A model generated the notes under the pieces. That model had not been told where the DNA came from. It was given only the letters and a program-made list of their open reading frames with translations, and ran no database searches. Shown here piece after piece: positions 9,267 through 57,590 of a DNA stretch of 57,853 nucleotides (the first letter of the stretch is position 1; every line of letters begins with the position of its first letter). The stretch lies in NCBI GenBank assembly GCA_964406775.1, contig CAYOSW010000006.1:1-57853 (forward strand). Direction: 5' to 3'. The translations under genes and the position numbers were made by a program. The DNA comes from an uncultured Gammaproteobacteria bacterium (GTDB lineage Bacteria; Patescibacteriota; Microgenomatia; Daviesbacterales; UBA10151).

Positions 9267-9282
9267 TGTGATACATATCACA
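9267..9282. promoter_or_regulatory. Perfect CRP-type box TGTGA-tacata-TCACA at -41.5 of the surface-protein promoter
   Basis: Exact palindrome; minus-strand -10 TACGTT at 9245..9240 gives class II geometry. Confidence 0.8.
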
Positions 9283-9297
9283 TTATCTTTGGGTATC

Positions 9298-9630
9298 TTA
9301 CTTTTTAGAACAGGAGATGCACAGAGTTGCAGTCGGCACAGCTTCAAGCCGTTCCGGTTCTATTTTCTTCCCGCAGTTTTCGCATTTGCCATAGCTTCCC
9401 GAGGATACTGACTGGAGAGAGTGCTTTATTTTAGCAAGCATATCGGTAAGGGTCTTTTTAACGGCAACTGTTCTTGTGTGGGTATCGGCAACCCAGGAGT
9501 CGGTTCCGGGCTCGGAGCTTTCCGCAATGTCCGAATTAACCGGATCATCCTGATCCAAAAGCTCTATTTCTTCCTCAACTTTTTTCTGTTGTTTAATCAG
9601 CTTATCTTTTATTTTTGTTAGAGTTGTCAT
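9298..9630 (-). CDS. dksA: DksA/TraR C4-type zinc finger protein
   Basis: SYGKCENCGKKI.PERLEAVPTATLCISC; DTDSW-like acidic tip. Confidence 0.88.
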   Translation of the reverse strand: MTTLTKIKDKLIKQQKKVEEEIELLDQDDPVNSDIAESSEPGTDSWVADTHTRTVAVKKTLTDMLAKIKHSLQSVSSGSYGKCENCGKKIEPERLEAVPTATLCISCSKK

Positions 9631-9631
9631 G

Positions 9632-10555
9632 TTAAAACTTTTCAGGATTTGAGCGGATATTCAATAATTTAAAAATCCGCTTTTTAGCCTTTATCAGGCT
9701 TATCCTTAAATTAACCCAGTGATTATACCACCCCTTTGAGATTTTTGTCACGGCTTGACTTCGGGCTTTAGAATCCGAGAAAAGTTTGCCGAATGAGGCT
9801 AAATCCTTAAGAGGAGTCTTCTTATTCACCCTGTAATACATCCAGATCCCCGCAAACAAAACAACCAGCGGGAAGACCAGATCCAGGTTTAAATTAAATC
9901 CCGATACCCTCAAAACCGTATTCGGGGATTTGAAAAAAGCCGCAATCAGTTTAATACCCGATAAGATTATTATGCCCTTGGCGAATAAATCTCCCTGGAC
10001 GTGGAATCTTAAAATCGCTTTCCAGAAAACGAGAAAGCTTAGCAGAAAAGCCGCTGACTCAAATAGCTGTACAGGGATTCTTTTTCCGATCACCCCCACC
10101 TGATCAACTCCAAAAAACAGATTCGTCTCCGCACCGATTCCGCAACCGCCCAAAAGACACCCGATCTCGGCAACAAATGCACCAATGAAGAATCCCGTTA
10201 CCGCAAAATCACCCGATTGAAGGAAGGAAATTTTAAATCTTTTCGCAAGCCAGGATAAGACGAGTATTGCACCGATTAAACCTCCCCAAAATGAAAAACC
10301 CGGATAACGGTTCAGAAAAACTATTTTCGTTATGCTGTCAAAAACGTTTATGTTTATGAGCACGAAAAAAAGTCTGGAGAAAATAAAACCGGCTCCGACG
10401 GTAAGAAAGATAACATCCAGGATTTTTTCGGCATCAAGGTCGTATCCCCGGCCGATCCGCCAGACGGTAAATCCCCCCAAAAAAATCCCCAGAGCGAGTA
10501 ATAAACCGAAAGACGAAACCGGGAAACTGCCGATACTCAATAAAACCGGATACAT
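9632..10555 (-). CDS. lgt: Prolipoprotein diacylglyceryl transferase-like membrane protein (start moved to MYPVLL)
   Basis: MYPVL N-terminus, GFSFWGGLIG, IPVQLFES; TG-g-TATATT-8-ATG supports the 10555 start. Confidence 0.75.
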   Translation of the reverse strand: MYPVLLSIGSFPVSSFGLLLALGIFLGGFTVWRIGRGYDLDAEKILDVIFLTVGAGFIFSRLFFVLININVFDSITKIVFLNRYPGFSFWGGLIGAILVLSWLAKRFKISFLQSGDFAVTGFFIGAFVAEIGCLLGGCGIGAETNLFFGVDQVGVIGKRIPVQLFESAAFLLSFLVFWKAILRFHVQGDLFAKGIIILSGIKLIAAFFKSPNTVLRVSGFNLNLDLVFPLVVLFAGIWMYYRVNKKTPLKDLASFGKLFSDSKARSQAVTKISKGWYNHWVNLRISLIKAKKRIFKLLNIRSNPEKF

Positions 10556-10632
10556 TTGCAGATAATATACCATTTCAGGAGGTCTGTTTGCTAATTATTG
10601 ACACCTGTTGCTATACTGGGGAGACTAACTAT

Positions 10633-11079
10633 ATGACTGCTACCGCACACGCATTAGTAGGAGGCGCCATCGCCTACTCTGTTCACGATCCGGTTTTAGG
10701 CATCAGCCTATCTCTTCTTTCCCACCCCATACTTGATTTCATCCCTCATTGGGATTTCGGCTGGGGCTGGAGAAAAAAAACTAAACTTAAGCTTTTTTGT
10801 GAGGCAAGCCTTGATTTAAGTCTGGGCGTTCTTCTTTCTTATGCAATGTTCGGGCAATATATGAACCTAACTTATTTTCTGGCTTGTGTCGGTGCATCTC
10901 TGCTTTGGGATTTTATGGAAATACCTTATTGGTTTTTCAACTGGAGGTTTTTCCCCTTCTCTACTCTTCATTCCATCCAGCACCATATTCAGGGAAAAGC
11001 CCGTTTGCCTTGGGGAGTTTTAACTCAGGTTGCAACAGTCGGAGTGGTACTTATTATCCTGAACAGCTTCAGTTTCTAA
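10633..11079 (+). CDS. Conserved membrane protein with His/Asp motifs (YdjM/metal-dependent hydrolase-like)
   Basis: MTATAHAL..SHPILDFIPHWD; GGGGAG RBS before the ATG at 10633. Confidence 0.7.
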   Translation: MTATAHALVGGAIAYSVHDPVLGISLSLLSHPILDFIPHWDFGWGWRKKTKLKLFCEASLDLSLGVLLSYAMFGQYMNLTYFLACVGASLLWDFMEIPYWFFNWRFFPFSTLHSIQHHIQGKARLPWGVLTQVATVGVVLIILNSFSF

Positions 11080-11088
11080 TTAAGAGGA

Positions 11089-11988
11089 CTAATTCTTCTG
11101 ATCCATTACCAGATTTTCGAGGTAATTTTTAAAATCGTCGCCGATGTCTTCGTGCTTTAATCCGTACTCAACTATTGTCTTCAGATATTCCAATTTATTT
11201 CCGGTATCGCGGTAAATGGCATTTTTAATTTCAACTGCGTGCACTGGTATCCCCTGATCGATTAAATCCTGAACCCCGAAGGTATAGACAAGTTCCTGTC
11301 CGTCTTCCAAAGTTTTTTCCGCCCGCTCCAGAGGTTCGTAAATATCGGGTGTAAAAATATACCCTGACATAACCGCATTGTCAGACGGCGAGGCAGCCGA
11401 ACTTCCGGGTTTTTCAACAATACTTTTAACGCGGATTACACCATTTTCAACTTCGTCTCCGCCTACAAATCCGTATTTTTTATAGTCGCCTTCGGATTTA
11501 GCTTTACCGGCGGCCAGTATTGTTGAACCGTATTTTTCGTAAGCTTCAATAAGCTGTTTTGCCCGGCTGGGTTCGGCATCAATAAAATCATCGCCGAAGA
11601 AAAGCATAAACGGATCATTCCCCATAATATGCTTGACGTTTAAGATCGGTGTCGCATTTCCCTGGGGTCCTTTTTGGCGGATATAAACAAATTCCGCGAG
11701 GTCGGAAATTTTTCTTACCATTTCGAGGGCCTCGGTTTTTCCTCCGCTTAACAGTTTTTCTTCAAGTTCAAAATTATTATCAAAATGATCCTCAATCGAG
11801 CGCTTATTCCAACCCGTTACGATCACGATTGTTTCTATTCCTGCATCGACCAACTCTTCAACAACTCTTTGGATAATCGGTTTATCAACCAAAGGCATCA
11901 TCTCTTTCGGCATTGCCTTGGTTTGAGGTAAGAATCTGGTTCCGAACCCTGCTGCAGGAATTAATGCTTTAGTAATCTTTTTGCCCAT
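11089..11988 (-). CDS. galU: UTP-glucose-1-phosphate uridylyltransferase
   Basis: KALIPAAGFGTRFLPQTKAMPKEM; VEKP; RDTGNKLEY. Confidence 0.93.
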   Translation of the reverse strand: MGKKITKALIPAAGFGTRFLPQTKAMPKEMMPLVDKPIIQRVVEELVDAGIETIVIVTGWNKRSIEDHFDNNFELEEKLLSGGKTEALEMVRKISDLAEFVYIRQKGPQGNATPILNVKHIMGNDPFMLFFGDDFIDAEPSRAKQLIEAYEKYGSTILAAGKAKSEGDYKKYGFVGGDEVENGVIRVKSIVEKPGSSAASPSDNAVMSGYIFTPDIYEPLERAEKTLEDGQELVYTFGVQDLIDQGIPVHAVEIKNAIYRDTGNKLEYLKTIVEYGLKHEDIGDDFKNYLENLVMDQKN

Positions 11989-11996
11989 ATCTTATT

Positions 11997-12203
11997 TTAA
12001 AACCTTACGGAATTCCTTTCAATTCCTCTCGGGTTTCTGAATGCTCCGTCTATAGACTGAAGTCTTGTTGTTAATATGCGATGAGTTCTTTCCGGATCAT
12101 CTGAGTGCAGGGGTACCATATATGCCAAAGCTCTTTTTATAAAACCCGGGAGCATCCTGCTTCCATTTCTTTTTTGGGGTTCGCTTCTTATCGGTTCTAT
12201 CAT
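11997..12203 (-). CDS. Small hypothetical protein
   Basis: ORF fits the gap between efp and galU; TTGATT-17-TAATCT upstream. Confidence 0.5.
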   Translation of the reverse strand: MIEPIRSEPQKRNGSRMLPGFIKRALAYMVPLHSDDPERTHRILTTRLQSIDGAFRNPRGIERNSVRF

Positions 12204-12251
12204 TTGCAGTTCTTTTACAAGATTACTTTATAGAAATTCTTTAATCAAGAT

Positions 12252-12818
12252 CTATTTCACACGTTCAACGTAAGCACCTGTTCTTGTATCAACTTTTACT
12301 TTATCACCGTTATGCATAAACATCGGGACTTTAACGACCAGTCCGTTTGCGAGCGTTGCTTCTTTATAGACATTGGACACGGTATTTCCCTTTTCCTCAG
12401 GTCCGGTGTCGGTAATTTCGTAGATCAGATTATTCGGAAGCTCTATCCCTAATGCTTCGTCTCCCGAAACAAGCAGAGAAACTTCCAGTCCTTCGTATAA
12501 AAATTTGGCGTTATCCCCTAAAACTTTTTCGGAAATCGTAAATTGCTCAAAGGATACAGGATCCATAAAATTATACGTATCCCCCTCTATATATAAGAAT
12601 TGGGTTTTCTTCTTTTCAACGTCCCCTTCTTCAACCCTTGCACCGGTGATGAAGGCCTTCTCCGTTATCGCACCTGAGCGGAGATTTTTAGCTTTTACTT
12701 TTATAGTGCCCGAACCCCGGCCCATTTTGATGTGTTCGTAGGTTATAACCTGCCAAAGATTCCCGTCTTCAACAAAGACAATTCCTGCGCGTAATTCTGA
12801 TGCGTTAAGTTGTGCCAT
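12252..12818 (-). CDS. efp: Translation elongation factor P
   Basis: ELRAG, HIKMGRG tip loop, DTRTGAYVERV. Confidence 0.96.
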   Translation of the reverse strand: MAQLNASELRAGIVFVEDGNLWQVITYEHIKMGRGSGTIKVKAKNLRSGAITEKAFITGARVEEGDVEKKKTQFLYIEGDTYNFMDPVSFEQFTISEKVLGDNAKFLYEGLEVSLLVSGDEALGIELPNNLIYEITDTGPEEKGNTVSNVYKEATLANGLVVKVPMFMHNGDKVKVDTRTGAYVERVK

Positions 12819-12819
12819 A

Positions 12820-14274: not shown

Positions 14275-14282
14275 AACAAGTA

Positions 14283-14311
14283 AATATAGCCTGAGCCTCT
14301 ATGTTTGTCAA
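14283..14311 (-). promoter_or_regulatory. Sigma70 promoter for pepA-efp
   Basis: TTGACA-17-TATATT-8-ATG. Confidence 0.75.
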
Positions 14312-14340
14312 TGGATCCTACCTTTAAGCAAGAGATTCCT

Positions 14341-14547
14341 GAAATTGCGCAGCAATTTCAAAAGGAGGAGTAGCGACGAGTTTGATTTGCAAAGCAAACA
14401 AACTCTAAACCAGTCTCTAACGCGTGGCGAAGGAGAGACAACACACCCTTTGCTCCGCAAAGGCGAACTAAATCGGAGATTTTGATCGATTCTTATTCCT
14501 GTGACAAAACTTTTCAAAATCGGCTGAAGCCAATCCCGAAAAGTTTG
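14341..14547. repeat. Cluster of palindromic hairpins downstream of tRNA-Leu, three with a TTGC-NNN-GCAA core
   Basis: 14341-14359, 14378-14405 and 14447-14463 share the core; further stems at 14413-14439 and 14505-14547. Confidence 0.7.
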
Positions 14548-14630
14548 TGCCGAAGGAGAGACTCGAACTCTCAAGGCCTTGCGACCAATAGTTTTTGAGA
14601 CTATCGCGTATACCATTCCGCCACTTCGGC
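14548..14630 (-). tRNA. tRNA-Leu (CAA), CCA not encoded
   Basis: GCCGAAG acceptor, GGAATGGTATAC D arm, ATAGT-CTCAAAA-ACTAT anticodon arm, long variable arm, GTTCGAGTC T loop; TG-g-TATAAT promoter at 14645-14650. Confidence 0.97.
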
Positions 14631-14809
14631 AAAAGACTTTTTGAATTATACCAAGCTTATTTTATCTTTGCGAGCGTCACAAAACTTCCGTTTGACTCTC
14701 CCCCCTTTTTTCTGCTACGTTTTTCCTGAAAGGAAAAAGGCAAGCTTCTTCGAGCGCGAAGTATAATTTCTTTATTGAAGCGCGAGAAGGTGCTTACAAA
14801 TTCTTACAT

Positions 14810-15364
14810 ATGATTTTAATCGGACTTGTCGGAGAAAAAGGCTCGGGTAAAGATACCTTCACAAAATTCCTTCAGGCAATATCCAACAAAAAAATCGAAC
14901 ACATTCGTTTCTCCGATTTGCTTAAAGAGACATTGGAAATCTGGAATCTTCCCTTAACGCGTGCCAATCTGCAAAAATTAGCTCAGATTCTGGAGGAAGG
15001 ATTTGGACCGGGTACTGTGGCTCACGGTTTAGAGCAAAAAATTAAAGCTACAAGCGCCGAAATAATTATTCTGGACGGGATCCGCTGGAAGCCAGATGAA
15101 GAACTTCTGGAAAAATTCCCCGATCATCTCCTTGTTTACATAACAGCAAACCCCGAGCTCAGGTTTAAAAGGTTAAAATCACGCGGGGAAAAAGACGGCG
15201 AATCGGAAATGACATATGAACAATTCGCGGAGGAAGAAAAAGCCCCTAACGAATTGCTTATAGGTAAAATCGGAGCCAAAGCCGGAGTAAAAATAACCAA
15301 TGACGGAACGATTGAGGATTTTGAGAAAAAGATAAAAGAATTTTTTGATTCTAAACTTTTATAG
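14810..15364 (+). CDS. P-loop nucleotide kinase (dephospho-CoA/adenylate kinase-like)
   Basis: GEKGSGKDT Walker A, IILDGIR, RFKRLKSR, ITNDG. Confidence 0.85.
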   Translation: MILIGLVGEKGSGKDTFTKFLQAISNKKIEHIRFSDLLKETLEIWNLPLTRANLQKLAQILEEGFGPGTVAHGLEQKIKATSAEIIILDGIRWKPDEELLEKFPDHLLVYITANPELRFKRLKSRGEKDGESEMTYEQFAEEEKAPNELLIGKIGAKAGVKITNDGTIEDFEKKIKEFFDSKLL

Positions 15365-47009: not shown

Positions 47010-47017
47010 TAAAGAAG

Positions 47018-47680: not shown

Positions 47681-48256
47681 ATGAGAATTATCGAAACAGG
47701 TGCGCGATTTCCTTGGGAACCGAGTTCGTTTCCCCCAGCTTTTGAGGCAACATCGCTTGGAGATGTAAAAAACTTTACCGGCAGTGCGGTTGAGGCAATC
47801 CTGGAAGCCCGCAAACAGGCTTTAGGCAGAATGCCTGCAGCTTTACGGATGTTTTACCCGAATACTCAATCCGGCAATATTTATACCTGTTATTTTGAAG
47901 TGCCAAGCGTAAACCACCGCCCCGGACTCTCGAATACCCGCGACGAAGAAGCGATTTTGTTAAGAGATTCCCGACTTAACGGCCTCGAAGTTGGTCCGAG
48001 TACTCCCACCGAAAGACTATTATCCCCTTTTCCGGTAGACGGCATTGCTTTCCGCTGGGACAAGGCGAGACGGGAGCCTTGGAATGCGGATGTGGTCGGC
48101 TTACAGGCGGCTTATTCGGAAATAAACGGGCTTACAGAAGCAAGATATACGCTTGTTTACCTGCTTAACGATGACCTGCTATTCTTAAAATTGCCTTCTC
48201 CGGGAATTCATTTTCCCGGCCAGTCCCCGCAGCTGCACATCGGTCACCGTGCGTGA
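47681..48256 (+). CDS. Hypothetical protein
   Basis: 191-aa ORF with TTGATT-17-TATACT-7-ATG. Confidence 0.65.
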   Translation: MRIIETGARFPWEPSSFPPAFEATSLGDVKNFTGSAVEAILEARKQALGRMPAALRMFYPNTQSGNIYTCYFEVPSVNHRPGLSNTRDEEAILLRDSRLNGLEVGPSTPTERLLSPFPVDGIAFRWDKARREPWNADVVGLQAAYSEINGLTEARYTLVYLLNDDLLFLKLPSPGIHFPGQSPQLHIGHRA

Positions 48257-48267
48257 TGTAAAACACA
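48252..48267. promoter_or_regulatory. CRP-like box CGTGA-N6-ACACA at -40.5 of the EamA-cupin promoter
   Basis: TG-c-TAAAAT at 48288-93, 6 nt before the ATG; left half overlaps the upstream TGA stop. Confidence 0.45.
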
Positions 48268-48299
48268 ATTTCTTCCTTGATATTTGCTAAAATAAATCT

Positions 48300-48722
48300 A
48301 TGAGTTGGCTCACATTCGCTCTACTTTCCGCGTTTTTTGCATCACTTACAGCGATTTTGGCTAAAGTCGGAATCAAGGATATTAATTCCAATCTGGCAAC
48401 TGCAATAAGAACCATAGTCATTTTAATATTTGCCTGGGGAATCGTTTTCTTTCAAGGAACACACAAGCAACTGAGTTCAATTTCCAATTTTTCTTTGACT
48501 TTTCTTGTCTTATCGGGAATCGCGACCGGACTGTCCTGGCTTTTTTATTTCCGGGCACTTCAGCTCGGCCAAGCTTCGCAAGTTGCTCCGATTGATAAGC
48601 TTTCGTTGGCTCTAACGGTCATACTCGCCGTCATTTTTCTGGGTGAGAAAGTAAATACTTCTCTCGTTATCGGAGTTATTTTTATGACGATCGGCACTTT
48701 TTTAATTGCCTTCGGGAAATGA
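48300..48722 (+). CDS. Single-repeat EamA-family membrane protein
   Basis: SAFFASLTAILAKVG, SQVAPIDKLS. Confidence 0.9.
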   Translation: MSWLTFALLSAFFASLTAILAKVGIKDINSNLATAIRTIVILIFAWGIVFFQGTHKQLSSISNFSLTFLVLSGIATGLSWLFYFRALQLGQASQVAPIDKLSLALTVILAVIFLGEKVNTSLVIGVIFMTIGTFLIAFGK

Positions 48723-48732
48723 GGTGATTTAA

Positions 48733-49116
48733 TTGACAGGATTTATCGGAAATATCGAAAAGTTAACGGCAGAGAATAATAATTTCAGACAGGTGCTTTA
48801 TACAAGCCAGCATACTCAGCTGGTTGTTATGAGTATTGAACCCGGGGGAGAAATCGGAACGGAGATTCACGAAATCGTTGATCAGTTTTTAAGAATCGAA
48901 TCGGGAGAAGGTAAAGTCATTATGAACGGCGAAGAGACTTCCATAAAGGACGGAGACGCTATTGTTGTGCCGGCAGGTGTTCAGCATAACTTTATCAATA
49001 CTTCCCAAACCGAACCTTTAAAACTTTACACGCTTTACAGTCCACCTCATCACAAGGACGGAACGGTTCATAAAACCAAAGCGGAAGCCGAAGCTGACAC
49101 GGAAGACCATATATAA
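48733..49116 (+). CDS. Cupin domain protein (mannose-6-P isomerase-like)
   Basis: IGTEIH..DQFLRIESG.G, VPAGVQHN, PPHH. Confidence 0.9.
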   Translation: MTGFIGNIEKLTAENNNFRQVLYTSQHTQLVVMSIEPGGEIGTEIHEIVDQFLRIESGEGKVIMNGEETSIKDGDAIVVPAGVQHNFINTSQTEPLKLYTLYSPPHHKDGTVHKTKAEAEADTEDHI

Positions 49117-51058: not shown

Positions 51059-51084
51059 ATTTCAATTAGGACTATTACTAAAGG

Positions 51085-51450: not shown

Positions 51451-51497
51451 CGGAAAATTATATCAAAAATTAGCAGTAAGATAAAGAGATTGCTAAA

Positions 51498-51821
51498 TTA
51501 TTCCAAAGGGAAACCTATTGCTCTCCATCCCAATAATCCATTTTCCATATTGAATATGTTTAAGTACCCAGCCTCAATAAGGCTTTGGGCGGCTACAACA
51601 CTCCTTGAACCGCTTAAACAATAAACAACGATTTTAGTTTTTTTATCGGGAACTAACTCCCCTATATCTCTTGTAATCGTTTCGTATGGAAGATTTACAC
51701 TCTTTTGAATCCTATTTCTTGCATATTCTTCGGGAGACCTGACATCCAGCAATACTAAATCCTGGTTTTGATCTATCATATTCTTAATTTCCTCTGCCTT
51801 TACTTGACTAAACGTATTCAC
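51498..51821 (-). CDS. Rhodanese-like sulfurtransferase
   Basis: LLDVRSPEEY, VYCLSGSRS, GLLGW. Confidence 0.9.
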   Translation of the reverse strand: MNTFSQVKAEEIKNMIDQNQDLVLLDVRSPEEYARNRIQKSVNLPYETITRDIGELVPDKKTKIVVYCLSGSRSVVAAQSLIEAGYLNIFNMENGLLGWRAIGFPLE

Positions 51822-51854
51822 CTGTCCAATCTAGCATCTAATCTTAGGAAATTG

Positions 51855-51870
51855 TGTGATCTAAATTACA
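51855..51870. promoter_or_regulatory. CRP-type box TGTGA-N6-TTACA at -41.5 of the leaderless rhodanese promoter
   Basis: TG-c-TAGATT-6-GTG; box centre 51862.5. Confidence 0.7.
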
Positions 51871-51873
51871 CCC

Positions 51874-54336
51874 CTAACCGAGTTTTTGTTCCTGTTCGTG
51901 GACTTTGATTATGGTTTTAATTACCGTATCGGGATTGAGAGACATACTGTCTATCCCCGCCCGGACTAGGAATTGGGCGAAATCGGGATAATCGGAAGGC
52001 GCCTGTCCGCAAATACCGATATATTTATTCCGCTTTTTGCAGACTTTAATAACCTCGCTGATCAACTCTTTTACGGATTTATCGTTCTCGTTGGCAATCG
52101 ATCTGATCCTCTCATTGCCGTCGCGGTCTATACCGAGCGTTAGCTGGGTTAAATCATTGGAACCTATACTCATTCCGTCAAAGATATCCAGGAATTCATC
52201 AGCCAAAATAACGTTTGAGGGAATCTCACACATTACATAAAACTTGAGACTTTTATCTTTTTTCCTGGACAATCCGTTCTTCTCCATTATTTCGATGACT
52301 TTTCTGCCTTCTTCCGCCGTCCGGCAAAACGGCACCATCACCATACAATTTAAAAGCCCGAATTCTTCCCTTACTTTTCTCAAGGCCCTTATTTCCAGCT
52401 TAAATGCCTCGATAAATTCCGGAGAATAATATCTTGATGCACCTCTCCAGCCGATCATCGGATTTTCCTCTTTCGGCTCGTATAAATCCCCTCCCAAAAG
52501 CGAACGGTATTCATTAGTTTTAAAATCCGAAAGTCTCACCAAAACCTGGTGCGGTGCAAATGCTGCGCATATTTTAGCTACACCTGAGGCGAGTTTATCA
52601 ACATAAAACTGCAATTTATCATCATAGCCTTCCGTCTCTTTATCAATTTTTTCCTTTAAATCTAAGGGGAGTTTCCCGTAATTAATTAAAGCGTTAGGGT
52701 GAATTCCGATATCGGAAGCGATAATGAATTCTTCCCGAGCCAGTCCGACTCCTGAATTGGGTAGAAAAGATTTTTCAAAAGCCGTGTCTGGAGTTGCAAT
52801 ATTGACCATTATTTTTGTTTTGGTTTCAGGAAGTTTTTTAATATCGATTTCGTCAATTTTAAATTTTAATTCCCCCTCAAAAACTATTCCGGCCGAACCT
52901 GTGGTATCGACAGTAATTATATCCCCCGTTTTAATTTTTTTGGTGGCATCGTCGGCCCCGACAATACAGGGAATCCCCAGTTCACGGGAAACAATTGCCG
53001 CGTGTGAGGTTCTTCCCCCTTTATCGGTAACGATACCCGAGGCAATCTTCATAACGGGTTCCCAATTCGGATCGGTAATTTCGGTAACAAGTATTTCGCC
53101 CTTTTCAAATTTATTAATATCCTTAACGTCCAGTATCACCCGTGCTTTACCCGCTGCAATTTTATTTCCGACAGAGGAACCCTTAACAATCTCCTTACCC
53201 TCCTGAGTCCTGACATATTCGTGAATTTTTGTTAAATCCCTTTCGGCGTGAATTGTTTCGGGTCTGGCCTGAACGATAAACAACTCCCCTGTTTCGCCGT
53301 CTTTTGCCCACTCCATATCCATCGGCGTCCATTTTCCCGCTTTCGCTGTGTAGTGCTTTTCTATTTCTACAGCCCAGGAAGCGAGTTTCAAAATTTCTTT
53401 GTCCGTTAATACAAAGTTCTTAAATTCCTTTCCTGTGGTTTCAATAATTTTAGTGGGTGTATCCTTTCCGTAAATCATTTTCCTGTTTTTACGTCCCAAA
53501 GTTTTACTGATAATAGGCGCATAGATTTTTCTGTTCAGAAGATGTTTTATCGGGTGCTGTTTAACAGTTTGCCCTAAAGTCGGCTTATAAATTACAAATT
53601 CGTCCGGGGTAACAGCTCCCTGAACAACCATCTCACCCAAACCCCACGATCCGTTGATGATTACAACATCCTTGAATCCCGACTCCGTATCCAACGAAAA
53701 CATAATCCCGGAGCAGGCCAAATCCGAACGGACCATTTTTTGAACCCCGACCGATAAAGCCACCTTAAAATGATCAAATCCCTTATCTACGCGGTATGAG
53801 ATTGCCCTATCATTAAATAGAGAAGCCATCGCTTTTTTAATGGCAATAAGTGTGTTCTCCAGACCCCTCACGTTCAGATATGTTTCGTGTTCACCGGCAA
53901 AAGAAGCCCCGGGGAGGTCTTCAGCAGTTGCAGAAGAGCGGACTGCAAAATCGGCATTTTTCCCATATTCCCCCTCCGCCTCCTTATGGGCTTTTTCAAT
54001 AGCTTGTTTTAAGTCTTCGGGAAACCCGGTTGCGACAATTTTTTCCCTAATTTTTTTACCCTTTTCTTCTAAATCCTGAATATTTTTGGTATTTAAATTC
54101 TTAAGTGTTTCTTTGATGAAGATATCCAAACCGCTTTCTTTTAAGAAATGGCGGTAAGCTGTGGCCGTGACTACATATCCTCCCGGAACGGGAATTCCTT
54201 TTTTCTTAGTTAATTCCCTGATCATCTCGCCTAAAGACGCATTTTTTCCTCCGACTTCAGGCACGTCTTTAATTGAAACTTCGGAAAGTTTCTTTATGAA
54301 CATAGATTGCCTGTTTACCCCATTAAAACCGTTCAT
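51874..54336 (-). CDS. ppsA: Phosphoenolpyruvate synthase
   Basis: VGGKNASLGEM, VRSSATAEDLP.ASFAG, IVQARPET, GGRTSHAAIVSRE, GSNDLTQL. Confidence 0.97.
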   Translation of the reverse strand: MNGFNGVNRQSMFIKKLSEVSIKDVPEVGGKNASLGEMIRELTKKKGIPVPGGYVVTATAYRHFLKESGLDIFIKETLKNLNTKNIQDLEEKGKKIREKIVATGFPEDLKQAIEKAHKEAEGEYGKNADFAVRSSATAEDLPGASFAGEHETYLNVRGLENTLIAIKKAMASLFNDRAISYRVDKGFDHFKVALSVGVQKMVRSDLACSGIMFSLDTESGFKDVVIINGSWGLGEMVVQGAVTPDEFVIYKPTLGQTVKQHPIKHLLNRKIYAPIISKTLGRKNRKMIYGKDTPTKIIETTGKEFKNFVLTDKEILKLASWAVEIEKHYTAKAGKWTPMDMEWAKDGETGELFIVQARPETIHAERDLTKIHEYVRTQEGKEIVKGSSVGNKIAAGKARVILDVKDINKFEKGEILVTEITDPNWEPVMKIASGIVTDKGGRTSHAAIVSRELGIPCIVGADDATKKIKTGDIITVDTTGSAGIVFEGELKFKIDEIDIKKLPETKTKIMVNIATPDTAFEKSFLPNSGVGLAREEFIIASDIGIHPNALINYGKLPLDLKEKIDKETEGYDDKLQFYVDKLASGVAKICAAFAPHQVLVRLSDFKTNEYRSLLGGDLYEPKEENPMIGWRGASRYYSPEFIEAFKLEIRALRKVREEFGLLNCMVMVPFCRTAEEGRKVIEIMEKNGLSRKKDKSLKFYVMCEIPSNVILADEFLDIFDGMSIGSNDLTQLTLGIDRDGNERIRSIANENDKSVKELISEVIKVCKKRNKYIGICGQAPSDYPDFAQFLVRAGIDSMSLNPDTVIKTIIKVHEQEQKLG

Positions 54337-54375
54337 AAATCTAGTTTACCTCTTAATTGGTCTTTTGTCATTTGC

Positions 54376-54792
54376 TTACTTGTTCAGCTTTGCCAAAACC
54401 CAACCCGCAACTACTGCCTCTATAAATCCACTGAGCGTCCAGCTCATAACCAGCACCAAAGAGACTTGAAAACTTGAGTAGGTTATGAACATACCCGGCA
54501 TTGTGGTTGCCATAAAATAGATCAAACCGAAATTCAAACCTCTGGAAGTTATAGTTTTACCTGCTACCGAATTTTTTACCTTATCCCAAACAAAAGCTAA
54601 GATAATACCCAGCACAAACGGGTAGGCGAAAAACATCTGCATCAGCGGATCCGACCACGGCCTGAATATAGCCTCATTTACATACTCGGCAGTTAAGGAA
54701 GGGAAAATGAATCCCGCCGAAAAACTGAAAACCAAACTTACAAGAAGCATCGCAACTCCTGTAATTAAACCTTGGACCAGAATTTTATTCAT
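54376..54792 (-). CDS. Four-TM hypothetical membrane protein
   Basis: Hydrophobic; last gene of the hpf-led run. Confidence 0.75.
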   Translation of the reverse strand: MNKILVQGLITGVAMLLVSLVFSFSAGFIFPSLTAEYVNEAIFRPWSDPLMQMFFAYPFVLGIILAFVWDKVKNSVAGKTITSRGLNFGLIYFMATTMPGMFITYSSFQVSLVLVMSWTLSGFIEAVVAGWVLAKLNK

Positions 54793-54801
54793 TTAATTCA
54801 C

Positions 54802-54954
54802 CTACTTTCTCTCTAAAATAATTTGTTTTAATTTATCGGGCATAGCACGGCATTTACAATTCTCTTCGTGACTTTTGTGCCAAATTATCCTCTGGTCAAT
54901 TGTCGGATTTTTTGGCATTTTATTTGCTTGATGCCATATCACATTAATCTTCAT
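54802..54954 (-). CDS. Small protein (50 aa) with a His/Cys cluster; absent from the ORF track
   Basis: MKINVIWHQANKMPKNPTIDQRIIWHKSHEENCKCRAMPDKLKQIILERK; ATGA overlap with the upstream stop. Confidence 0.75.
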   Translation of the reverse strand: MKINVIWHQANKMPKNPTIDQRIIWHKSHEENCKCRAMPDKLKQIILERK

Positions 54955-55145
54955 CGCTTCTTCCTATAAATCAACAAATAAATGATTGGCAATATTCCGA
55001 TTGTATTGAGAGTCAATAGTCCAACAAACCAGTATTTTTGTCCCCGCCTGGCAGAAAACCAAAGTGCTATCCCCTTCCAAGTAACTTCCCAAACTATTAT
55101 CAGTATTAGTACTGCTGAATTTTGTTGTAAAAAATTTATATCCAA
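54951..55145 (-). CDS. DUF5652-like small membrane protein
   Basis: WKGIALWFSAR..QK.WF..LL..NT.GILPIIY. Confidence 0.8.
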   Translation of the reverse strand: MDINFLQQNSAVLILIIVWEVTWKGIALWFSARRGQKYWFVGLLTLNTIGILPIIYLLIYRKKR

Positions 55146-55147
55146 GG

Positions 55148-55495
55148 CTATCTCCTTTCTTTAGGGAAGAAATGCCCCTTTATGATAAACAAAGCTCCAA
55201 TCAAAAACAGCGGACCAAACAAAGCAAGGTTTACCCAAAAAGGATTATTAAAAAATGCCGACATCAAAAGCGAAAGTAGTATAAAAATTAACCCTCCCAG
55301 TTTTTCAATTTTATAAGCCAAAATTAAAACAATTATTAATATGAAATTAGGCATCAGGTGAATTAAAAGTCCTGTTAAAATTTCCAATAGCGACCTCCCG
55401 GGCTCAAATATATCAAGGGCAAAAACTCCTAGAAATATAATGTAACCAATAGCCAAAATTCTAGGCAGCCAGTAGAAAATTTTATACTTGTTCAT
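55148..55495 (-). CDS. Conserved hypothetical membrane protein
   Basis: YWLPRILAI..FLGVFALD.F pattern; 4 TM. Confidence 0.75.
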   Translation of the reverse strand: MNKYKIFYWLPRILAIGYIIFLGVFALDIFEPGRSLLEILTGLLIHLMPNFILIIVLILAYKIEKLGGLIFILLSLLMSAFFNNPFWVNLALFGPLFLIGALFIIKGHFFPKERR

Positions 55496-55859
55496 TGATA
55501 CCTTCCTTTCTTATTGTGTCTTGATTCGGGTATTGGCTTTGGGATTTAAAATGAAGATCCTTATATTTCTTGATTTCCCTGTTTAAATGTTTCATACCGC
55601 CGTGAATGCACTCACTAACCGTCACTCCCTTAAAGTGGGTATAGAGTGCTTTTTTGGGCAAAATCAATCTCATCCATCCTTCGTAATTAGCCTGAATTGT
55701 TTTAGTTTTTGAAATATTCCGTTTGATAAAAAAATTAAGGGAAGTCAGATCAGGGTTGAGGTGAGGCAATAACCTGCTTATCTTTTCCAGATTTTTGTTA
55801 AGAATTTCAAGAGCCTCTCCGTCAACTTTCACTCCTTTATCGGCAACATTTACTCTCAT
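55482..55859 (-). CDS. HPF/RaiA-like ribosome-associated protein (start moved to MRVNV)
   Basis: Beta-alpha-beta-beta-beta-alpha pattern ending L.REIKKYK. Confidence 0.65.
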   Translation of the reverse strand: MRVNVADKGVKVDGEALEILNKNLEKISRLLPHLNPDLTSLNFFIKRNISKTKTIQANYEGWMRLILPKKALYTHFKGVTVSECIHGGMKHLNREIKKYKDLHFKSQSQYPNQDTIRKEGINEQV

Positions 55860-55892
55860 AACCCTTTTTAGCACTCCCGGGGATTACTTTTC

Positions 55893-55908
55893 GTTGACTT
55901 GGGTCACA
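55893..55908. promoter_or_regulatory. CRP-type box (minus strand TGTGA-N6-TCAAC) 41.5 bp upstream of the hpf-like ATG
   Basis: Centre 55900.5; TG-c-TAAAAA at 55870..55865. Confidence 0.6.
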
Positions 55909-55909
55909 A

Positions 55910-56557
55910 TCAGGGATTCAGTTCTTTTTCCAGATTTTCAAGATTATTTATGACAACGGTGTTATTCTCGAATGTAATCAGGTTATTTTCCTTTAACTTA
56001 CTTATGAGTCTGCTGACTGTTTCCCTCGCGATACCGCTGTGAGAAGCCAAATCCTTTTCAAATATTTTAAAATCTATCGTCACTTTTCCGTTTTCGTTTT
56101 TACCGAAGCGTTTGGCAAAAATTAATAATTCGGTAATAAATTTCCCGTATGCGCTTCCGGACATCGAATACTCGAGCCTCTGCCACATCCCTTCCATCCC
56201 CCGGTAAATTCGCCTGAGCAAGTCGAGTAATATCTCGGGCTCGTTTTTTAAGAAATTGAGAAATTCATCAGCCGGAGCTTTAAAATACTTACCGTCAGCC
56301 ATTCCTTCAAAATAATGAGGAATCGTTTTCTTATTTAAGACCCAGGGCATAGGGAAAAAAGCATCGGGTTTAAAAAGGTTTAAAACTACTTCAACTCCCT
56401 CGGCATTTACGGAATATTCCTTTACAACGCCTTCGGTTAAATAATAGACACCGCCGGGATCCTGATCGGCCTCAATCAACGGTTCTCCTTTGGAGAAATA
56501 CGAAGATTTATATTTACCGAAAAAAATGTCCAGTTTTTCCTTCACAGCGGGTTCCAT
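55910..56557 (-). CDS. Crp/Fnr-family transcriptional regulator (start moved to MEPAV)
   Basis: cNMP-like domain (GVYYLTEGVVKEY); HTH with RETVSR; TTGAGC-17-CATAAT-7-ATG. Confidence 0.92.
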   Translation of the reverse strand: MEPAVKEKLDIFFGKYKSSYFSKGEPLIEADQDPGGVYYLTEGVVKEYSVNAEGVEVVLNLFKPDAFFPMPWVLNKKTIPHYFEGMADGKYFKAPADEFLNFLKNEPEILLDLLRRIYRGMEGMWQRLEYSMSGSAYGKFITELLIFAKRFGKNENGKVTIDFKIFEKDLASHSGIARETVSRLISKLKENNLITFENNTVVINNLENLEKELNP

Positions 56558-56596
56558 CTGTCCAATTATGCCACGCCTTGCATTTAAGCTCAAGCT

Positions 56597-56612
56597 AGTG
56601 ACCTGCGTCATT
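56597..56612. promoter_or_regulatory. CRP-like box AGTGA-N6-TCATT in the crp/DUF4342 divergent region
   Basis: At -41.5 relative to TATATC at 56634-39 on +; abuts the crp -35 on -. Confidence 0.5.
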
Positions 56613-56665
56613 GATATTTCCATTCTTCTGCTTTATATCAAGGTTGAAAAGTGAGGTGAGGCAAA

Positions 56666-56965
56666 ATGACAAAAAGAACTGAGGAATTCAAAGTTTCGGG
56701 AAACGATGTTGTTAATAAAATTAAGGAATTGATTAAGGCGGGCAATATCCGAAAGATAACAATCAAAGATAAAAAAGGTAAGGCTTTTGCCGAATTTCCT
56801 TTAACTATTGGCGTTGTAGGGACGGTAATCCTCCCCGTGGCCGCGGCGATAAGTACCATTATTGCTCTGGTCGCAGAATGCACCATTTCCGTTGAAAAAG
56901 AAGCTGTGGATAAAGAAGTTGTTGAGACTGAGGAAGCGGAAGGAAAAGATAAGTCTGACTCTTAA
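56666..56965 (+). CDS. DUF4342 domain protein
   Basis: TEEFKVSG.DVV.KIKELIK.GNIR.I.IK, EFPLT.GVVG, AEC.I.VEK. Confidence 0.9.
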   Translation: MTKRTEEFKVSGNDVVNKIKELIKAGNIRKITIKDKKGKAFAEFPLTIGVVGTVILPVAAAISTIIALVAECTISVEKEAVDKEVVETEEAEGKDKSDS

Positions 56966-56980
56966 TAGAGTTTTAAGGGG

Positions 56981-57310
56981 GTGATAATAATGTATTGGTT
57001 AACAGCAGTTTTAGGGTTGTCGTCGCTTATTGCTCCGTTTGTTTTAGGATATAACGCAGATGCTTCAGCCCTTTGGACAAGTTTAACAATCGGACTGGTT
57101 TTAATGGGCGCATCTGGGTTTGAGTGGGCAGCTAAAGACCGGGAAGCCTGGGAATACTGGGTTGCGGGTATTGCCGGGGTAACTGCAGTACTTGCCCCGT
57201 TTGCTTTAGGTTTTACCGGAGTTACTATGGCTGTTTGGACACTAGTCACAATCGGACTCATAACAGTTATAGCCGCAGGAATAAAACTTTTTCCTGGACA
57301 TCAACTCTAG
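56981..57310 (+). CDS. SPW-repeat membrane protein
   Basis: Two repeats ending IAPFVLGY and LAPFALGF. Confidence 0.85.
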   Translation: MIIMYWLTAVLGLSSLIAPFVLGYNADASALWTSLTIGLVLMGASGFEWAAKDREAWEYWVAGIAGVTAVLAPFALGFTGVTMAVWTLVTIGLITVIAAGIKLFPGHQL

Positions 57311-57330
57311 AGTCTTTCGGGTAAATTAAA

Positions 57331-57362
57331 TCCCGGCATCTGCGGGTTTACGGGTGCCGGGA
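57331..57362. terminator. GC-rich hairpin between convergent genes
   Basis: TCCCGGCA...TGCCGGGA stem. Confidence 0.5.
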
Positions 57363-57371
57363 AAGGACTGA

Positions 57372-57542
57372 CTACATTTTGAACATCTCAAGAACTTTAT
57401 AAACAAATACTCCCGGCCAGAATATTGCCAGAAATACTCCGATGAGCCCGTCTGTAAATGAGGACGCGTGCTGGATAAAGTAGACTAGTGCTCCGAGCAT
57501 TCCTAACCCGTATATCGCACTAGTTCCGGCATTATTCTTCAT
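57372..57542 (-). CDS. Small 2-TM membrane protein (56 aa); absent from the ORF track
   Basis: MKNNAGTSAIYGLGMLGALVYFIQHASSFTDGLIGVFLAIFWPGVFVYKVLEMFKM; TATAAT-6-ATG. Confidence 0.8.
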   Translation of the reverse strand: MKNNAGTSAIYGLGMLGALVYFIQHASSFTDGLIGVFLAIFWPGVFVYKVLEMFKM

Positions 57543-57574
57543 ATATGCATTATACTCCTAACCGTTTTTATGAA

Positions 57575-57590
57575 CTTGATAAAAATCACA
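57575..57590. promoter_or_regulatory. CRP-type box (minus strand TGTGA-N6-TCAAG) at -40.5 of the 57542 leaderless promoter
   Basis: Centre 57582.5; -10 TATAAT at 57554..57549. Confidence 0.65.

What the first reader, a model, noticed from the sequence alone, without database searches (positions are those of the whole stretch)
9267..57590. Candidate Crp/Fnr regulon readable from sequence: six boxes at class II position
Seen: TGTGA-N6-TCACA-like sites at 9267, 48252, 51855, 55893, 56597 and 57575. Each is centred 40.5-41.5 bp upstream of an inferred TSS or leaderless start codon, and none of these promoters shows a clear -35. Known: CRP class II sites centre at -41.5 and the R-E-x-x-x-R helix reads TGTGA; the regulator at 55910..56557 has RETVSR. 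It lacks the G-E...R-S/T cAMP pocket and FNR cysteines, so the effector is unknown. Targets: surface protein, EamA-cupin, rhodanese, HPF-led operon, DUF4342-SPW and a small membrane protein. Inference: a stress or dormancy regulon in a reduced genome.
Basis: partly seen in the sequence, partly recalled or inferred. Interest (0 to 1): 0.78.

Follow-up and report, generated by a model that had tools for sequence, protein, structure and literature searches.

The report
CRP-type regulon in a CPR bacterium
A small-genome (Patescibacteria/CPR) bacterium carries a CRP/FNR-type regulator whose 16-bp binding boxes sit exactly 41 bp upstream of leaderless start codons. The same boxes recur beside the same regulator in dozens of related genomes, so this is a real but conventional regulon with an unknown signal.

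Summary
All six boxes are at the stated coordinates, with 0, 2, 1, 2, 3 and 2 mismatches to TGTGA-N6-TCACA. A crude consensus count is not above chance (20 vs 15.9). A matrix trained only on 80 related loci ranks five of the six as window hits 1, 2, 3, 5 and 6 (6 hits at or above 11.5 bits vs 1.2 expected).

Four boxes lie 40.5 or 41.5 bp from a start codon that follows a -10 element by 5-6 nt, which implies leaderless mRNAs. Across relatives the box-to-start distance peaks sharply at 41.5 bp. Boxes cluster within 500 bp of the regulator gene (about 20-fold).

Alignments with close relatives conserve the boxes at 51855, 55893, 56597 and 57575, with their spacing. The box at 9267 recurs in one of three relatives. 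The box at 48252 is weak, and 74 EamA orthologues lack one.

The regulator has the CRP fold and the R-E-x-x-x-R base-contact triad. It lacks the cAMP pocket and has no cysteine.

Best reading: a class II CRP/FNR-type activator, probably ligand-gated, controlling an HPF-like/PpsA operon, rhodanese, DUF4342-SPW and a small membrane protein. It is a new member of a known kind, in a lineage recently reported to lack such regulators. The 'dormancy' theme remains inference.

The parts
55910..56557 (-). Crp/Fnr-family regulator, 215 aa. The true start is ATG 56557, not the 237-aa ORF start at 56623.
   Evidence: Pfam cNMP_binding 1.4e-10 and HTH_Crp_2 1e-11. All 27 homologues start at the aligned M1, and R178-E179-T-V-S-R183 is invariant. 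AF2 pLDDT is 87. Foldseek top hits are Mtb CRP, GlxR and NtcA with TM 0.65-0.71.
56565..56573 (-). Extended -10 (TGgCATAAT) of the regulator's own leaderless promoter, 7 nt before ATG 56557.
   Evidence: Conserved as GTGG(C/G)ATAATT in four relatives.
56597..56612 (.). Box AGTGACCTGCGTCATT in the divergent regulator/DUF4342 region. It lies about -41.5 from the inferred DUF4342 start site and -47.5 from the regulator's start codon.
   Evidence: 12.5 bits. The core GTGA(C/T)-N4-(G/A)GTCAC is conserved in L081, L083, L085, L086 and L087 while the flanks diverge. The -10 T-A-T is conserved 34.5 bp from the centre.
56666..57310 (+). DUF4342 (56666..56965) and SPW-repeat (56981..57310) membrane-protein pair. 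It has a leader and a GAGGTGAGG Shine-Dalgarno sequence.
   Evidence: Pfam PF14242 3.4e-24 and PF03779 4.8e-14. Synteny and box are kept in L081, L083, L085, L086 and L087.
55893..55908 (.). Box (gene orientation TGTGACCCAAGTCAAC), 41.5 bp upstream of ATG 55859.
   Evidence: 11.9 bits. Both arms are conserved in L081, L083, L084 and L085, and the 22-bp box sequence is identical in L086 and L087. The N4 centre varies. ATG 55859 is conserved, whereas GTG 55874 is not.
55865..55873 (-). Extended -10 (TGcTAAAAA), 5 nt before the leaderless ATG of the HPF-like gene.
   Evidence: Read directly from the sequence.
51874..55859 (-). Operon: HPF-like (55482..55859), DUF7670 (55148..55495), three small membrane ORFs (54951..55145, 54802..54954, 54376..54792) and PEP synthase-like PpsA (51874..54336).
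   Evidence: HPF-like: PF02482 E=0.11 in the window, 7 of 11 homologues at or below 0.1, profile vs PDB HPF 9e-4. DUF7670 1.5e-28; PpsA with PPDK_N 2e-112. PpsA is box-controlled directly in L001, L013, L033 and L040, and follows the HPF-like gene directly in L086.
51855..51870 (.). Box (gene orientation TGTAATTTAGATCACA), 41.5 bp upstream of the leaderless GTG 51821 of rhodanese.
   Evidence: 14.4 bits. It is identical in L087. In L086 the arms (TGTAAC..ATCACA), the TGnTAnATT -10 and the GTG keep exact spacing while the spacer DNA diverges.
51828..51836 (-). Extended -10 (TGcTAGATT), 6 nt before GTG 51821.
51498..51821 (-). Single-domain rhodanese, 107 aa.
   Evidence: PF00581 6.3e-20. Homologues are 107-113 aa, which supports the GTG start. 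A rhodanese-domain gene is also box-linked in the distant locus L071.
57575..57590 (.). Box (gene orientation TGTGATTTTTATCAAG), 40.5 bp upstream of ATG 57542.
   Evidence: 16.2 bits. The box, TATAAT and ATG are conserved without indels in L081, L082 and L083. Also present in L087 (20.5 bits) and L036.
57372..57554 (-). 56-aa membrane protein (57372..57542) with its TATAAT -10 (57549..57554), 6 nt before the start codon.
   Evidence: The protein is 94-96% identical in relatives whose regulator is 81-86% identical.
9267..9282 (.). Perfect palindrome TGTGATACATATCACA between dksA-like (9298..9630) and the fn3 surface protein (7396..9195).
   Evidence: Best matrix hit in the window, 18.6 bits. 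L089 (DksA 89% identical) has AGTGATAAAAATCACA (19.5 bits) at the same place, before surface-protein genes. L088 and L090 have none. Only a weak -10 (TACGTT) lies at the class II distance. The box is 79.5 bp from the GTG.
7396..9195 (-). 599-aa secreted fn3-domain protein, the candidate target of box 9267.
   Evidence: PF00041 4e-10 and an N-terminal hydrophobic signal.
48252..48267 (.). Doubtful box CGTGATGTAAAACACA, 40.5 bp upstream of the leaderless EamA ATG 48300.
   Evidence: Only 6.4 bits. The right core is ACA, not TCA. The left arm contains the stop codon of the upstream ORF. The right arm is weaker still in L087. None of 74 EamA orthologues scanned has a class II box. In its favour: the exact position, and the downstream cupin is box-linked in 12 of 19 relatives.
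48300..49116 (+). EamA (48300..48722) and cupin (48733..49116) pair. The extended -10 TGcTAAAAT lies at 48285..48293.
   Evidence: PF00892 6.8e-22 and PF07883 4.6e-17.
3289..3304 (.). Possible seventh box ATTGAAATTTATCAAT, 40.5 bp upstream of ATG 3256 (a 91-aa ORF followed by a histidine kinase).
   Evidence: 10.1 bits. Histidine kinases are box-linked in L009, L012 and L019. Conservation of this site was not tested.

Best explanation
The 215-aa protein encoded at 55910..56557 is a dimeric CRP/FNR-family transcription factor.

Inferred mechanism:
- Its recognition helix (R-E-T-V-S-R, the same base-contact triad as CRP R180/E181/R185) reads a 16-bp palindrome, (T/A)(G/T)TGA(T/C)-N4-(A/G)TCA(C/A)(A/T).
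- In this organism many mRNAs are leaderless, so the first base of the start codon is also the transcription start.
- At the rhodanese, HPF-like/PpsA and 56-aa-membrane-protein promoters, the box centre therefore lies at -40.5/-41.5. It takes the place of a -35 element upstream of a (often TG-extended) -10.
- At the DUF4342-SPW promoter it sits at the same distance from a conserved -10, but the mRNA has a leader.
- The bound dimer most likely recruits RNA polymerase as a class II activator.
- The same DUF4342 box lies at -47.5 on the regulator's own divergent promoter. That is off-phase for activation, so it probably feeds back on the regulator's synthesis.
- Box 9267 is very probably a real site near a surface-protein gene. 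Box 48252 is at best a weak site.
- The sensor domain is strongly conserved but has no cAMP, 2-oxoglutarate or Fe-S determinants. Activity is therefore probably gated by an unidentified small ligand.

Shown here (computationally): family membership, motif, conservation, co-localisation with the regulator gene, and geometry.

Inferred only: binding, activation rather than repression, ligand gating, and the physiological theme.
For: Family:
- Pfam domains.
- Profile hits to NtcA (5e-25) and CRP (3e-20).
- AF2 pLDDT 87, with CRP/GlxR/NtcA as structural neighbours.
- R-E-x-x-x-R invariant. These residues are listed as the CRP specific base contacts in PMC12531629.

Motif, found without prior:
- TGTGA-N6-TCACA is the top palindrome among all 5-N(0-12)-5 words in 80 loci carrying the orthologous regulator (21 vs 0.43 expected).
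- 70 sites with up to 1 mismatch, against 8-17 for scrambled controls.

Cognate pairing:
- 62 of 80 loci have a strong box within 1 kb of the regulator gene.
- Density is 0.88 per kb within 500 bp and 0.04 per kb beyond 1.5 kb.

Geometry:
- Box-to-start distances in relatives peak at 41.5 (25 cases) and 42.5 (10 cases) over a background of about 4.
- In the window, 5 of 9 upstream hits fall at 40.5/41.5.

Leaderless architecture:
- TANNNT lies exactly 6 nt before the start codon in 16 of 75 genes, against a background of about 3.
- The same TGnTAnAAT-6/7-ATG pattern is seen upstream of most CPR EamA orthologues.
- Box promoters have poor -35 matches.

Footprints:
- Arms and spacing are conserved, and spacers vary, for boxes 55893, 56597, 57575 and 51855.

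Shared targets in relatives: HPF-like, PpsA, cupin, the 56-aa protein, DUF4342/SPW and rhodanese.
Against: - There are no binding data, no mapped transcription start sites and no expression data.
- Leaderless starts are inferred from sequence alone.
- The matrix was refined on the same loci used for the density and distance tests. This is partly circular, although the seeds and the palindrome enumeration were unbiased.
- A crude consensus count in the window is not above chance.
- Box 48252 fails conservation.
- Box 9267 has no convincing -10 at the class II distance and is absent from 2 of 3 relatives.
- Boxes upstream of the regulator gene itself sit at varied distances in relatives (33.5 to 106.5), so autoregulation is not uniform.
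- Only 58 kb of the genome is visible, so a paralogous regulator cannot be excluded.
- The ligand is unknown, and the protein could be ligand-independent.
Confidence: 0.75

Rival explanations
1. The same regulator and the same boxes, but the protein acts mainly as a repressor or dual regulator. Sitting over the -35 region of promoters with strong TG-extended -10 elements, which need no -35, it would block or hold RNA polymerase instead of recruiting it.
For: Three of the four leaderless box promoters have an extended -10 (TGn), and the fourth has a perfect TATAAT. Such promoters can fire without an activator. Boxes at 33.5 bp before the regulator's own start in several relatives, and at -47.5 in the window, are positions typical of repression.
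Against: The sharp single-base peak at 41.5 across distant lineages is the signature of class II activation in the CRP, FNR and NtcA families. Repression would tolerate a range of overlapping positions. The box promoters are the ones with the poorest -35 elements. A second box recurs 23 bp upstream, at about -64.5, which resembles tandem activator sites.
Confidence: 0.15
2. A class II activator that needs no ligand, like Thermus thermophilus SdrP (TTHA1359; background knowledge). The regulon would then be switched by how much regulator is made, through its autoregulated promoter, and not by an effector.
For: The residues that bind cAMP in CRP are replaced, there is no cysteine, and the positions aligned to the NtcA 2-oxoglutarate arginines are not arginine (NtcA residue numbers are from memory). 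A box in the regulator's own promoter region is conserved. SdrP (2zcw) is among the sequence and structure hits.
Against: The sensor domain holds most of the invariant residues of the family: G43, V45, G54, E56, N60, F67-F68-P69, plus near-invariant W72 and N75. They cluster where other family members hold their ligand, which suggests a conserved pocket. SdrP is not the closest relative (NtcA and CRP score better).
Confidence: 0.2
3. The boxes are bound by a different protein, for example a paralogous Crp/Fnr regulator elsewhere in the genome. The regulator at 55910..56557 would then have another specificity.
For: Only 58 kb of the genome is visible. CRP/FNR paralogues often share TGTGA-like or TTGAT-like sites.
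Against: Boxes cluster tightly around this regulator's orthologues in 62 of 80 genomes spanning Microgenomates-type and Saccharibacteria genomes. Its recognition helix carries the TGTGA-reading triad and is invariant.
Confidence: 0.05
4. The palindromes are chance matches or RNA hairpins or terminators with no regulatory role.
For: The crude count in the window is not above chance. Box 48252 and the strong-looking 48299 match are explained by coding sequence.
Against: Matrix hits are 5-fold over expectation. The positions are non-random. Arms are conserved in sequence and do not co-vary, half-sites are often not self-complementary, and no T-run follows. Rfam has no match at these sites.
Confidence: 0.03

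Closest known systems
Escherichia coli CRP (CAP) at class II promoters
   Same: Two-domain fold. Identical base-contact triad (R180/E181/R185 in CRP, R178/E179/R183 here). TGTGA-N6-TCACA palindrome. Site centred at -41.5, replacing the -35 element.
   Different: About 19-20% identity. The NCBIfam CRP score is 33.5 against a cut-off of 266. The cAMP-binding residues G71/E72/R82/S83 are replaced by P/M/I/P. The promoters are leaderless. The information in the site is concentrated in TGA/TCA, with TTGAT-like variants allowed.
Cyanobacterial NtcA (2-oxoglutarate-responsive, class II activator)
   Same: Best sequence match among solved structures (E=5e-25). Also works from -41.5 at promoters without a -35 element (background knowledge).
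   Different: The NtcA helix is R-V-T-V-T-R and its site is GTA-N8-TAC (background knowledge). The score is 42.6 against a cut-off of 245. The aligned positions of the NtcA 2-oxoglutarate arginines are not arginine here (alignment; residue numbers from memory).
Thermus thermophilus SdrP (TTHA1359, PDB 2zcw) and TAP (TTHB099)
   Same: CRP/FNR-family class II activators (PMC12531629, for the Thermus regulator). From background knowledge: Thermus has many leaderless mRNAs; SdrP needs no known effector, is induced in stationary phase and controls stress, redox and nutrient genes. That resembles the target list here.
   Different: More distant in sequence and structure (E=1.9e-12, TM about 0.5). 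Whether the CPR protein needs a ligand is unknown.
E. coli FNR and FixK-type regulators
   Same: Class II activation at -41.5. TTGAT-N4-ATCAA-like variants of the box occur here, for example at 57575 and 3289.
   Different: The N-terminal cysteine cluster is missing, and the protein has no cysteine at all. The helix is R-E-T-V-S-R rather than the FNR E-x-x-S-R type (background knowledge).
Mycobacterium tuberculosis CRP (Rv3676) and Corynebacterium GlxR
   Same: Closest structural neighbours of the predicted model (TM 0.65-0.71). They are global regulators, and their hosts have many leaderless genes (background knowledge).
   Different: Those proteins bind cAMP. About 20% identity.

Membership tests
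CRP/FNR superfamily of transcription factors | N-terminal cNMP-binding-type beta-roll domain followed by a long dimerisation helix | tested here: met
   PF00027 1.4e-10, above the gathering score. The AF2 model (pLDDT 87) shows eight strands followed by helix 107-131.
CRP/FNR superfamily of transcription factors | C-terminal Crp-type winged helix-turn-helix domain | tested here: met
   PF13545 1e-11 and PF00325 2.9e-5, both above cut-off. Foldseek full-length matches to Mtb CRP, GlxR and NtcA, E about 1e-15 to 1e-14.
CRP/FNR superfamily of transcription factors | Recognition-helix base-contact residues matching a TGTGA-type half-site (R-E-x-x-x-R) | tested here: met
   R178, E179 and R183 are invariant in 27 homologues and align to CRP R-E-T-V-G-R. 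These are the contact residues listed in PMC12531629 Table 1.
CRP/FNR superfamily of transcription factors | Binds a 5-N6-5 inverted repeat as a dimer | not testable with these tools
   Only indirect evidence is available: the motif is the top palindrome near orthologous regulators and is conserved in footprints.
Class II CRP/FNR-dependent promoter | Site centred near -41.5 from the transcription start, overlapping or replacing the -35 element | tested here: inconclusive
   The feature is met if start codon equals start site: 40.5/41.5 at four window genes, a peak at 41.5 in relatives, and poor -35 elements. No start site has been mapped.
cAMP receptor protein (CRP equivalog) | cAMP pocket residues (G71, E72, R82, S83 in E. 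coli numbering) and a score above the NCBIfam cut-off | tested here: not met
   The aligned residues are P69, M70, I79 and P80. NF008732 scores 33.5 against a cut-off of 266.
FNR (oxygen-sensing) | Cysteine ligands for a [4Fe-4S] cluster | tested here: not met
   The 215-aa protein contains no cysteine. NF008365 scores 24.4 against 228.
NtcA | Equivalog score | tested here: not met
   TIGR03697 scores 42.6 against a cut-off of 244.95.
NtcA | R-V-T-V-T-R recognition helix | tested here: not met
   The helix here is R-E-T-V-S-R.
NtcA | GTA-N8-TAC binding site | tested here: not met
   The motif found here is TGTGA-N6-TCACA.
HPF/RaiA ribosome hibernation factor (first gene of the target operon) | Match to PF02482 (Ribosomal_S30AE) above the gathering score, or a beta-alpha-beta-beta-beta-alpha fold | tested here: inconclusive
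   Window protein E=0.11 (13.6 bits against a cut-off of 23.7). Seven of 11 homologues match at or below 0.1 (best 1e-3), all spanning the whole model. The family profile hits PDB HPF chains first (9e-4), co-linear at both ends. The single-sequence AF2 model is unusable (pLDDT 45).

The most novel reading that the evidence does not exclude
This is a CPR-wide master regulator, present from Microgenomates-type to Saccharibacteria genomes, whose conserved but unrecognised pocket (invariant F-F-P, W, N) senses a signal that none of the characterised CRP/FNR sensors is known to detect. The signal could be host-derived or an energy-state metabolite. It would switch these episymbionts between growth and a hibernating or stress-protected state (HPF-like, PpsA, VKOR, release-factor-like, PNPOx-like and membrane proteins). 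Because the mRNAs are leaderless, the full regulon could be read from any CPR genome simply as boxes 41.5 bp before start codons.
Probability: 0.25. Interest if true: 0.7.

Novelty: new member of a known kind. Interest (0 to 1): 0.5.

Why it matters
Almost nothing is known about gene regulation in Patescibacteria/CPR, which have very few transcription factors and mostly cannot be grown alone.

A 2025 survey of the CRP/FNR family reported a 'notable absence' of full-length members in CPR (PMC12531629). Here a full-length subfamily was found: 151 tblastn-confirmed matches in a one-genome-per-species collection. The labelled records among the 80 loci kept are overwhelmingly CPR. The subfamily has a conserved site, a conserved position and a partly conserved target set.

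That gives three things. First, a simple sequence rule for predicting a regulon in uncultured organisms: a box 41.5 bp before a start codon. Second, a correction for systematic start-codon miscalls in these leaderless genomes. Third, a concrete protein, DNA sites and candidate ligand pocket for biochemical study of how these reduced cells respond to their environment.

The mechanism itself (class II CRP/FNR activation) is textbook. The value therefore lies in the lineage and the unknown signal, not in a new principle.

Tried and rejected
- **Crude consensus count.** TGTGA-N6-TCACA with up to 2 mismatches gives 20 matches against 15.9 expected. This is uninformative, so I replaced it with a matrix trained on relatives.
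- **Site 48299** (TATGAGTTGGCTCACA, 14.0 bits, on the EamA start codon). I considered it as a second or repressor site and rejected it. It is coding sequence (M-S-W-L-T-F), and its TGA core is lost in L087.
- **EamA as a conserved target.** None of the 74 metagenomic EamA orthologues scanned has a class II box. The three weak hits (at or above 6 bits) lie 62.5-124.5 bp upstream.
- **The 237-aa ORF of the regulator and the 130-aa ORF of the HPF-like gene.** Both rejected in favour of ATG 56557 and ATG 55859, from homologue alignments.
- **Hairpin, terminator or known RNA.** No T-run follows the palindromes, the arms are conserved and do not co-vary, and Rfam has no hit there.
- **Structure of the HPF-like protein.** Predicted from a single sequence, it failed (pLDDT 45), so no fold search was run on it.
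- **Exact look-up of the 237-aa regulator ORF.** It found nothing.
- **Literature.** Searches for Crp/Fnr in Patescibacteria or Saccharibacteria, and for leaderless transcription in CPR, found no prior description.
- **cAMP, Fe-S and 2-oxoglutarate as effectors.** All disfavoured from aligned residues.

Full report
**1. What is in the window**

The window (about 41% GC) comes from a Patescibacteria/CPR bacterium. Homologues of its regulator are labelled Daviesbacteria, Levybacteria, Roizmanbacteria, Woesebacteria and Saccharibacteria. Two Logan contigs (L086, L087) are syntenic with window 47-57 kb.

The ORF at 55910..56557 (minus strand) is a Crp/Fnr-family protein:
- It matches cNMP_binding and HTH_Crp_2.
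- All 27 aligned homologues begin at the methionine encoded at 56557, so the protein has 215 aa, not 237.
- The predicted structure is confident (pLDDT 87). Its nearest solved neighbours are Mtb CRP, GlxR and NtcA.
- By sequence the nearest solved proteins are NtcA (5e-25) and CRP (3e-20).
- R-E-T-V-S-R is invariant. It carries the three CRP base-contact residues listed in PMC12531629.
- The protein has no cysteine.

**2. The boxes and chance**

The crude count of matches with up to 2 mismatches is not above chance (20 vs 15.9). The observation therefore had to be tested in another way.

I fetched 80 genomic loci that encode relatives of the regulator.
- An unbiased enumeration of all 5-N(0-12)-5 palindromes there puts TGTGA-N6-TCACA first (21 exact copies vs 0.43 expected).
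- Scrambled controls give 8-17 sites against 70 for the real motif.
- A weight matrix built from these loci alone has consensus TGTGAT-N4-ATCACA, with the information concentrated in TGA/TCA.
- Hits at or above 11.5 bits number 6 against 1.19 in simulations, reached in 0 of 200.
- The sixth box, 48252, scores only 6.4 bits. About a dozen such hits are expected by chance.
- Rank 4 (48299) is coding sequence at the EamA start and is not conserved.

**3. Geometry**

Leaderless promoters are common here. A TANNNT hexamer ends exactly 6 nt before the start codon in 16 of 75 genes, against a background of about 3. It is often preceded by TGn. The same pattern precedes most CPR EamA orthologues.

Four box genes have this architecture:

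| Gene | -10 element, gap, start codon | Box centre to start codon (bp) |
|---|---|---|
| EamA | TGcTAAAAT-6-ATG | 40.5 |
| rhodanese | TGcTAGATT-6-GTG | 41.5 |
| HPF-like | TGcTAAAAA-5-ATG | 41.5 |
| 56-aa protein | TATAAT-6-ATG | 40.5 |

- Of nine matrix hits at or above 6 bits in the 160 bp upstream of the 75 genes, five lie at 40.5/41.5. My binomial estimate is about 8e-8, or about 3e-5 using only the strong sites.
- These promoters have the poorest -35 matches.
- In the relatives the distance from box centre to the start of an ORF of at least 60 aa shows a single sharp peak at 41.5 (25 cases) and 42.5 (10) over about 4 per bin. A secondary hump appears near 64.5.
- The secondary hump reflects tandem boxes exactly 23 bp apart (27 pairs).

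The remaining two boxes depend on an inferred -10. Box 56597 lies 34.5 bp from a conserved T-A-T -10 of the DUF4342 promoter, the same distance as in the leaderless cases, and that mRNA has a Shine-Dalgarno leader. The same box is at -47.5 on the regulator's own leaderless promoter (TGgCATAAT-7-ATG). Box 9267 is 79.5 bp from the GTG of the fn3 protein. Only a weak TACGTT hexamer sits at the class II distance.

**4.

- In relatives whose regulator is 64-86% identical, the arms of boxes 55893, 56597 and 57575 are conserved, together with the -10 elements, start codons and spacing. The central N4 and the flanks vary.
- For rhodanese, L086 has diverged through the spacer. It keeps TGTAAC..ATCACA, TGtTAAATT and GTG at identical spacing, including the imperfect TGTAA arm.
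- For 9267, L089 has AGTGATAAAAATCACA (19.5 bits) just after dksA and ahead of surface-protein genes. L088 and L090, with different downstream genes, have none.
- For 48252, the left arm overlaps the upstream ORF's stop codon and the right arm is weaker in L087. None of 74 EamA orthologues has a class II box.
- The downstream cupin, however, is box-linked in 12 of 19 relatives. A weak site therefore cannot be excluded.

**5. Is the box this regulator's site?**

- Strong boxes occur within 1 kb of the regulator gene in 62 of 80 loci. Density is 0.88 per kb within 500 bp and about 0.04 per kb beyond 1.5 kb.
- Together with the invariant TGTGA-reading helix, this makes the pairing very likely.
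- Recurrent targets in relatives are an unknown 117-aa protein (the commonest, absent from this window), the regulator itself, cupin, a PNPOx-like protein, VKOR, bPH, PpsA, the 56-aa membrane protein, a release-factor-like baeRF10 protein, the HPF-like protein, histidine kinases and a rhodanese.
- The 'HPF' label is only weakly supported. PF02482 is sub-threshold, but seven of 11 homologues match at or below 0.1 (best 1e-3), each over the whole model. The family profile hits solved HPF chains first.

**6. Mechanism and rivals**

The best reading is a class II CRP/FNR-type activator working at leaderless promoters. It is probably ligand-gated, because most invariant residues lie in the sensor domain. 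The ligand is unknown.

The rivals are:
- a repressor or dual role (strong extended -10 elements; off-phase boxes at its own promoter);
- a ligand-independent, SdrP-like regulator;
- a paralogue as the true binder;
- chance (a live option only for 48252).

**7. Novelty**

The mechanism is standard. The lineage is not. A 2025 survey states that full-length CRP/FNR proteins are notably absent from CPR (PMC12531629). Here 151 relatives were confirmed in species-representative genomes, and the labelled records among the 80 loci kept are overwhelmingly CPR. No paper describing this regulon was found. I rate it a new member of a known kind, of moderate interest.

**Limits**

- Everything here is computational.
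- Gene starts in the loci come from ORF heuristics.
- The matrix was refined on the loci later used for the density and distance tests.
- Only 58 kb of the genome was seen.

Noticed in passing
window 3289..3304: Possible seventh box, ATTGAAATTTATCAAT (10.1 bits). It lies 40.5 bp upstream of ATG 3256 of a 91-aa ORF with no Pfam match, preceded by GATAAT 5 nt before the ATG. The next gene is a histidine kinase, and histidine kinases are box-linked in L009, L012 and L019.
   Followed up: partly
window 1565..2956 (minus strand): A histidine kinase appears split into two ORFs: GAF+HisKA (2084..2956) and HATPase_c (1565..2077), separated by a stop. This could be a frameshift or pseudogene, a sequencing error, or a genuinely split kinase.
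   Followed up: no
L001-L080 (e.g. L006 5147/5170, L022 7035, L025 7041): In relatives the boxes often come in tandem, with a very sharp centre-to-centre spacing of 23 bp (27 pairs, plus 5 at 22 bp). This places a second dimer at about -64.5. No tandem pair occurs in the window.
   Followed up: partly
whole window; also L091-L136: The promoter architecture is pervasively leaderless: (TGn)TAnnnT followed by 6 nt and then the start codon, in at least 16 of 75 window genes and upstream of most CPR EamA orthologues. Gene callers mis-set starts as a result. The regulator is called at 233-237 aa instead of 215, the rhodanese at 84-93 aa instead of 107, and the HPF-like gene at 130-145 aa.
   Followed up: partly
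L001 6608..7000, L002, L019 and about 25 other loci: The most frequent box-linked gene in relatives is an uncharacterised protein of about 117 aa (MIK...GDY.L.ET...YAW...GEILV...GKYRLYEV...WQGYLLPTGLP) with no Pfam family. It usually lies convergent with the regulator and is leaderless at 41.5 bp. It is absent from this window.
   Followed up: partly
window 54337..54372, upstream of PpsA ATG 54336: PpsA, inside the HPF-led operon, has its own sigma-70-like leaderless promoter (ATGACA-17-TAAACT-6-ATG). It may therefore also be transcribed independently of the box.
   Followed up: no
window 51822..51830 and 56558..56566: The rhodanese and regulator promoters share an identical 9-mer, ATTGGACAG, running from the last bases of the -10 element to just before the start codon. 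It is not conserved in L086, so it may be coincidence or a recent duplication.
   Followed up: no
record titles (e.g. L003-L006, L009, L011): About 30 of the MAG records that carry this CPR-type regulator and its typical neighbours are titled 'uncultured Gammaproteobacteria bacterium', and one is titled 'Pristimantibacillus'. These look like placeholder or wrong taxonomic labels.
   Followed up: no
literature: PMC12531629: A 2025 family-wide study states that CRP/FNR proteins with both domains are notably absent from the CPR clade. The 151 relatives found here contradict that statement.
   Followed up: partly
window 14547..14630 (minus strand): tRNA-Leu (CAA). The overlapping 102-aa ORF 14308..14616 is therefore probably not a gene.
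   Followed up: no
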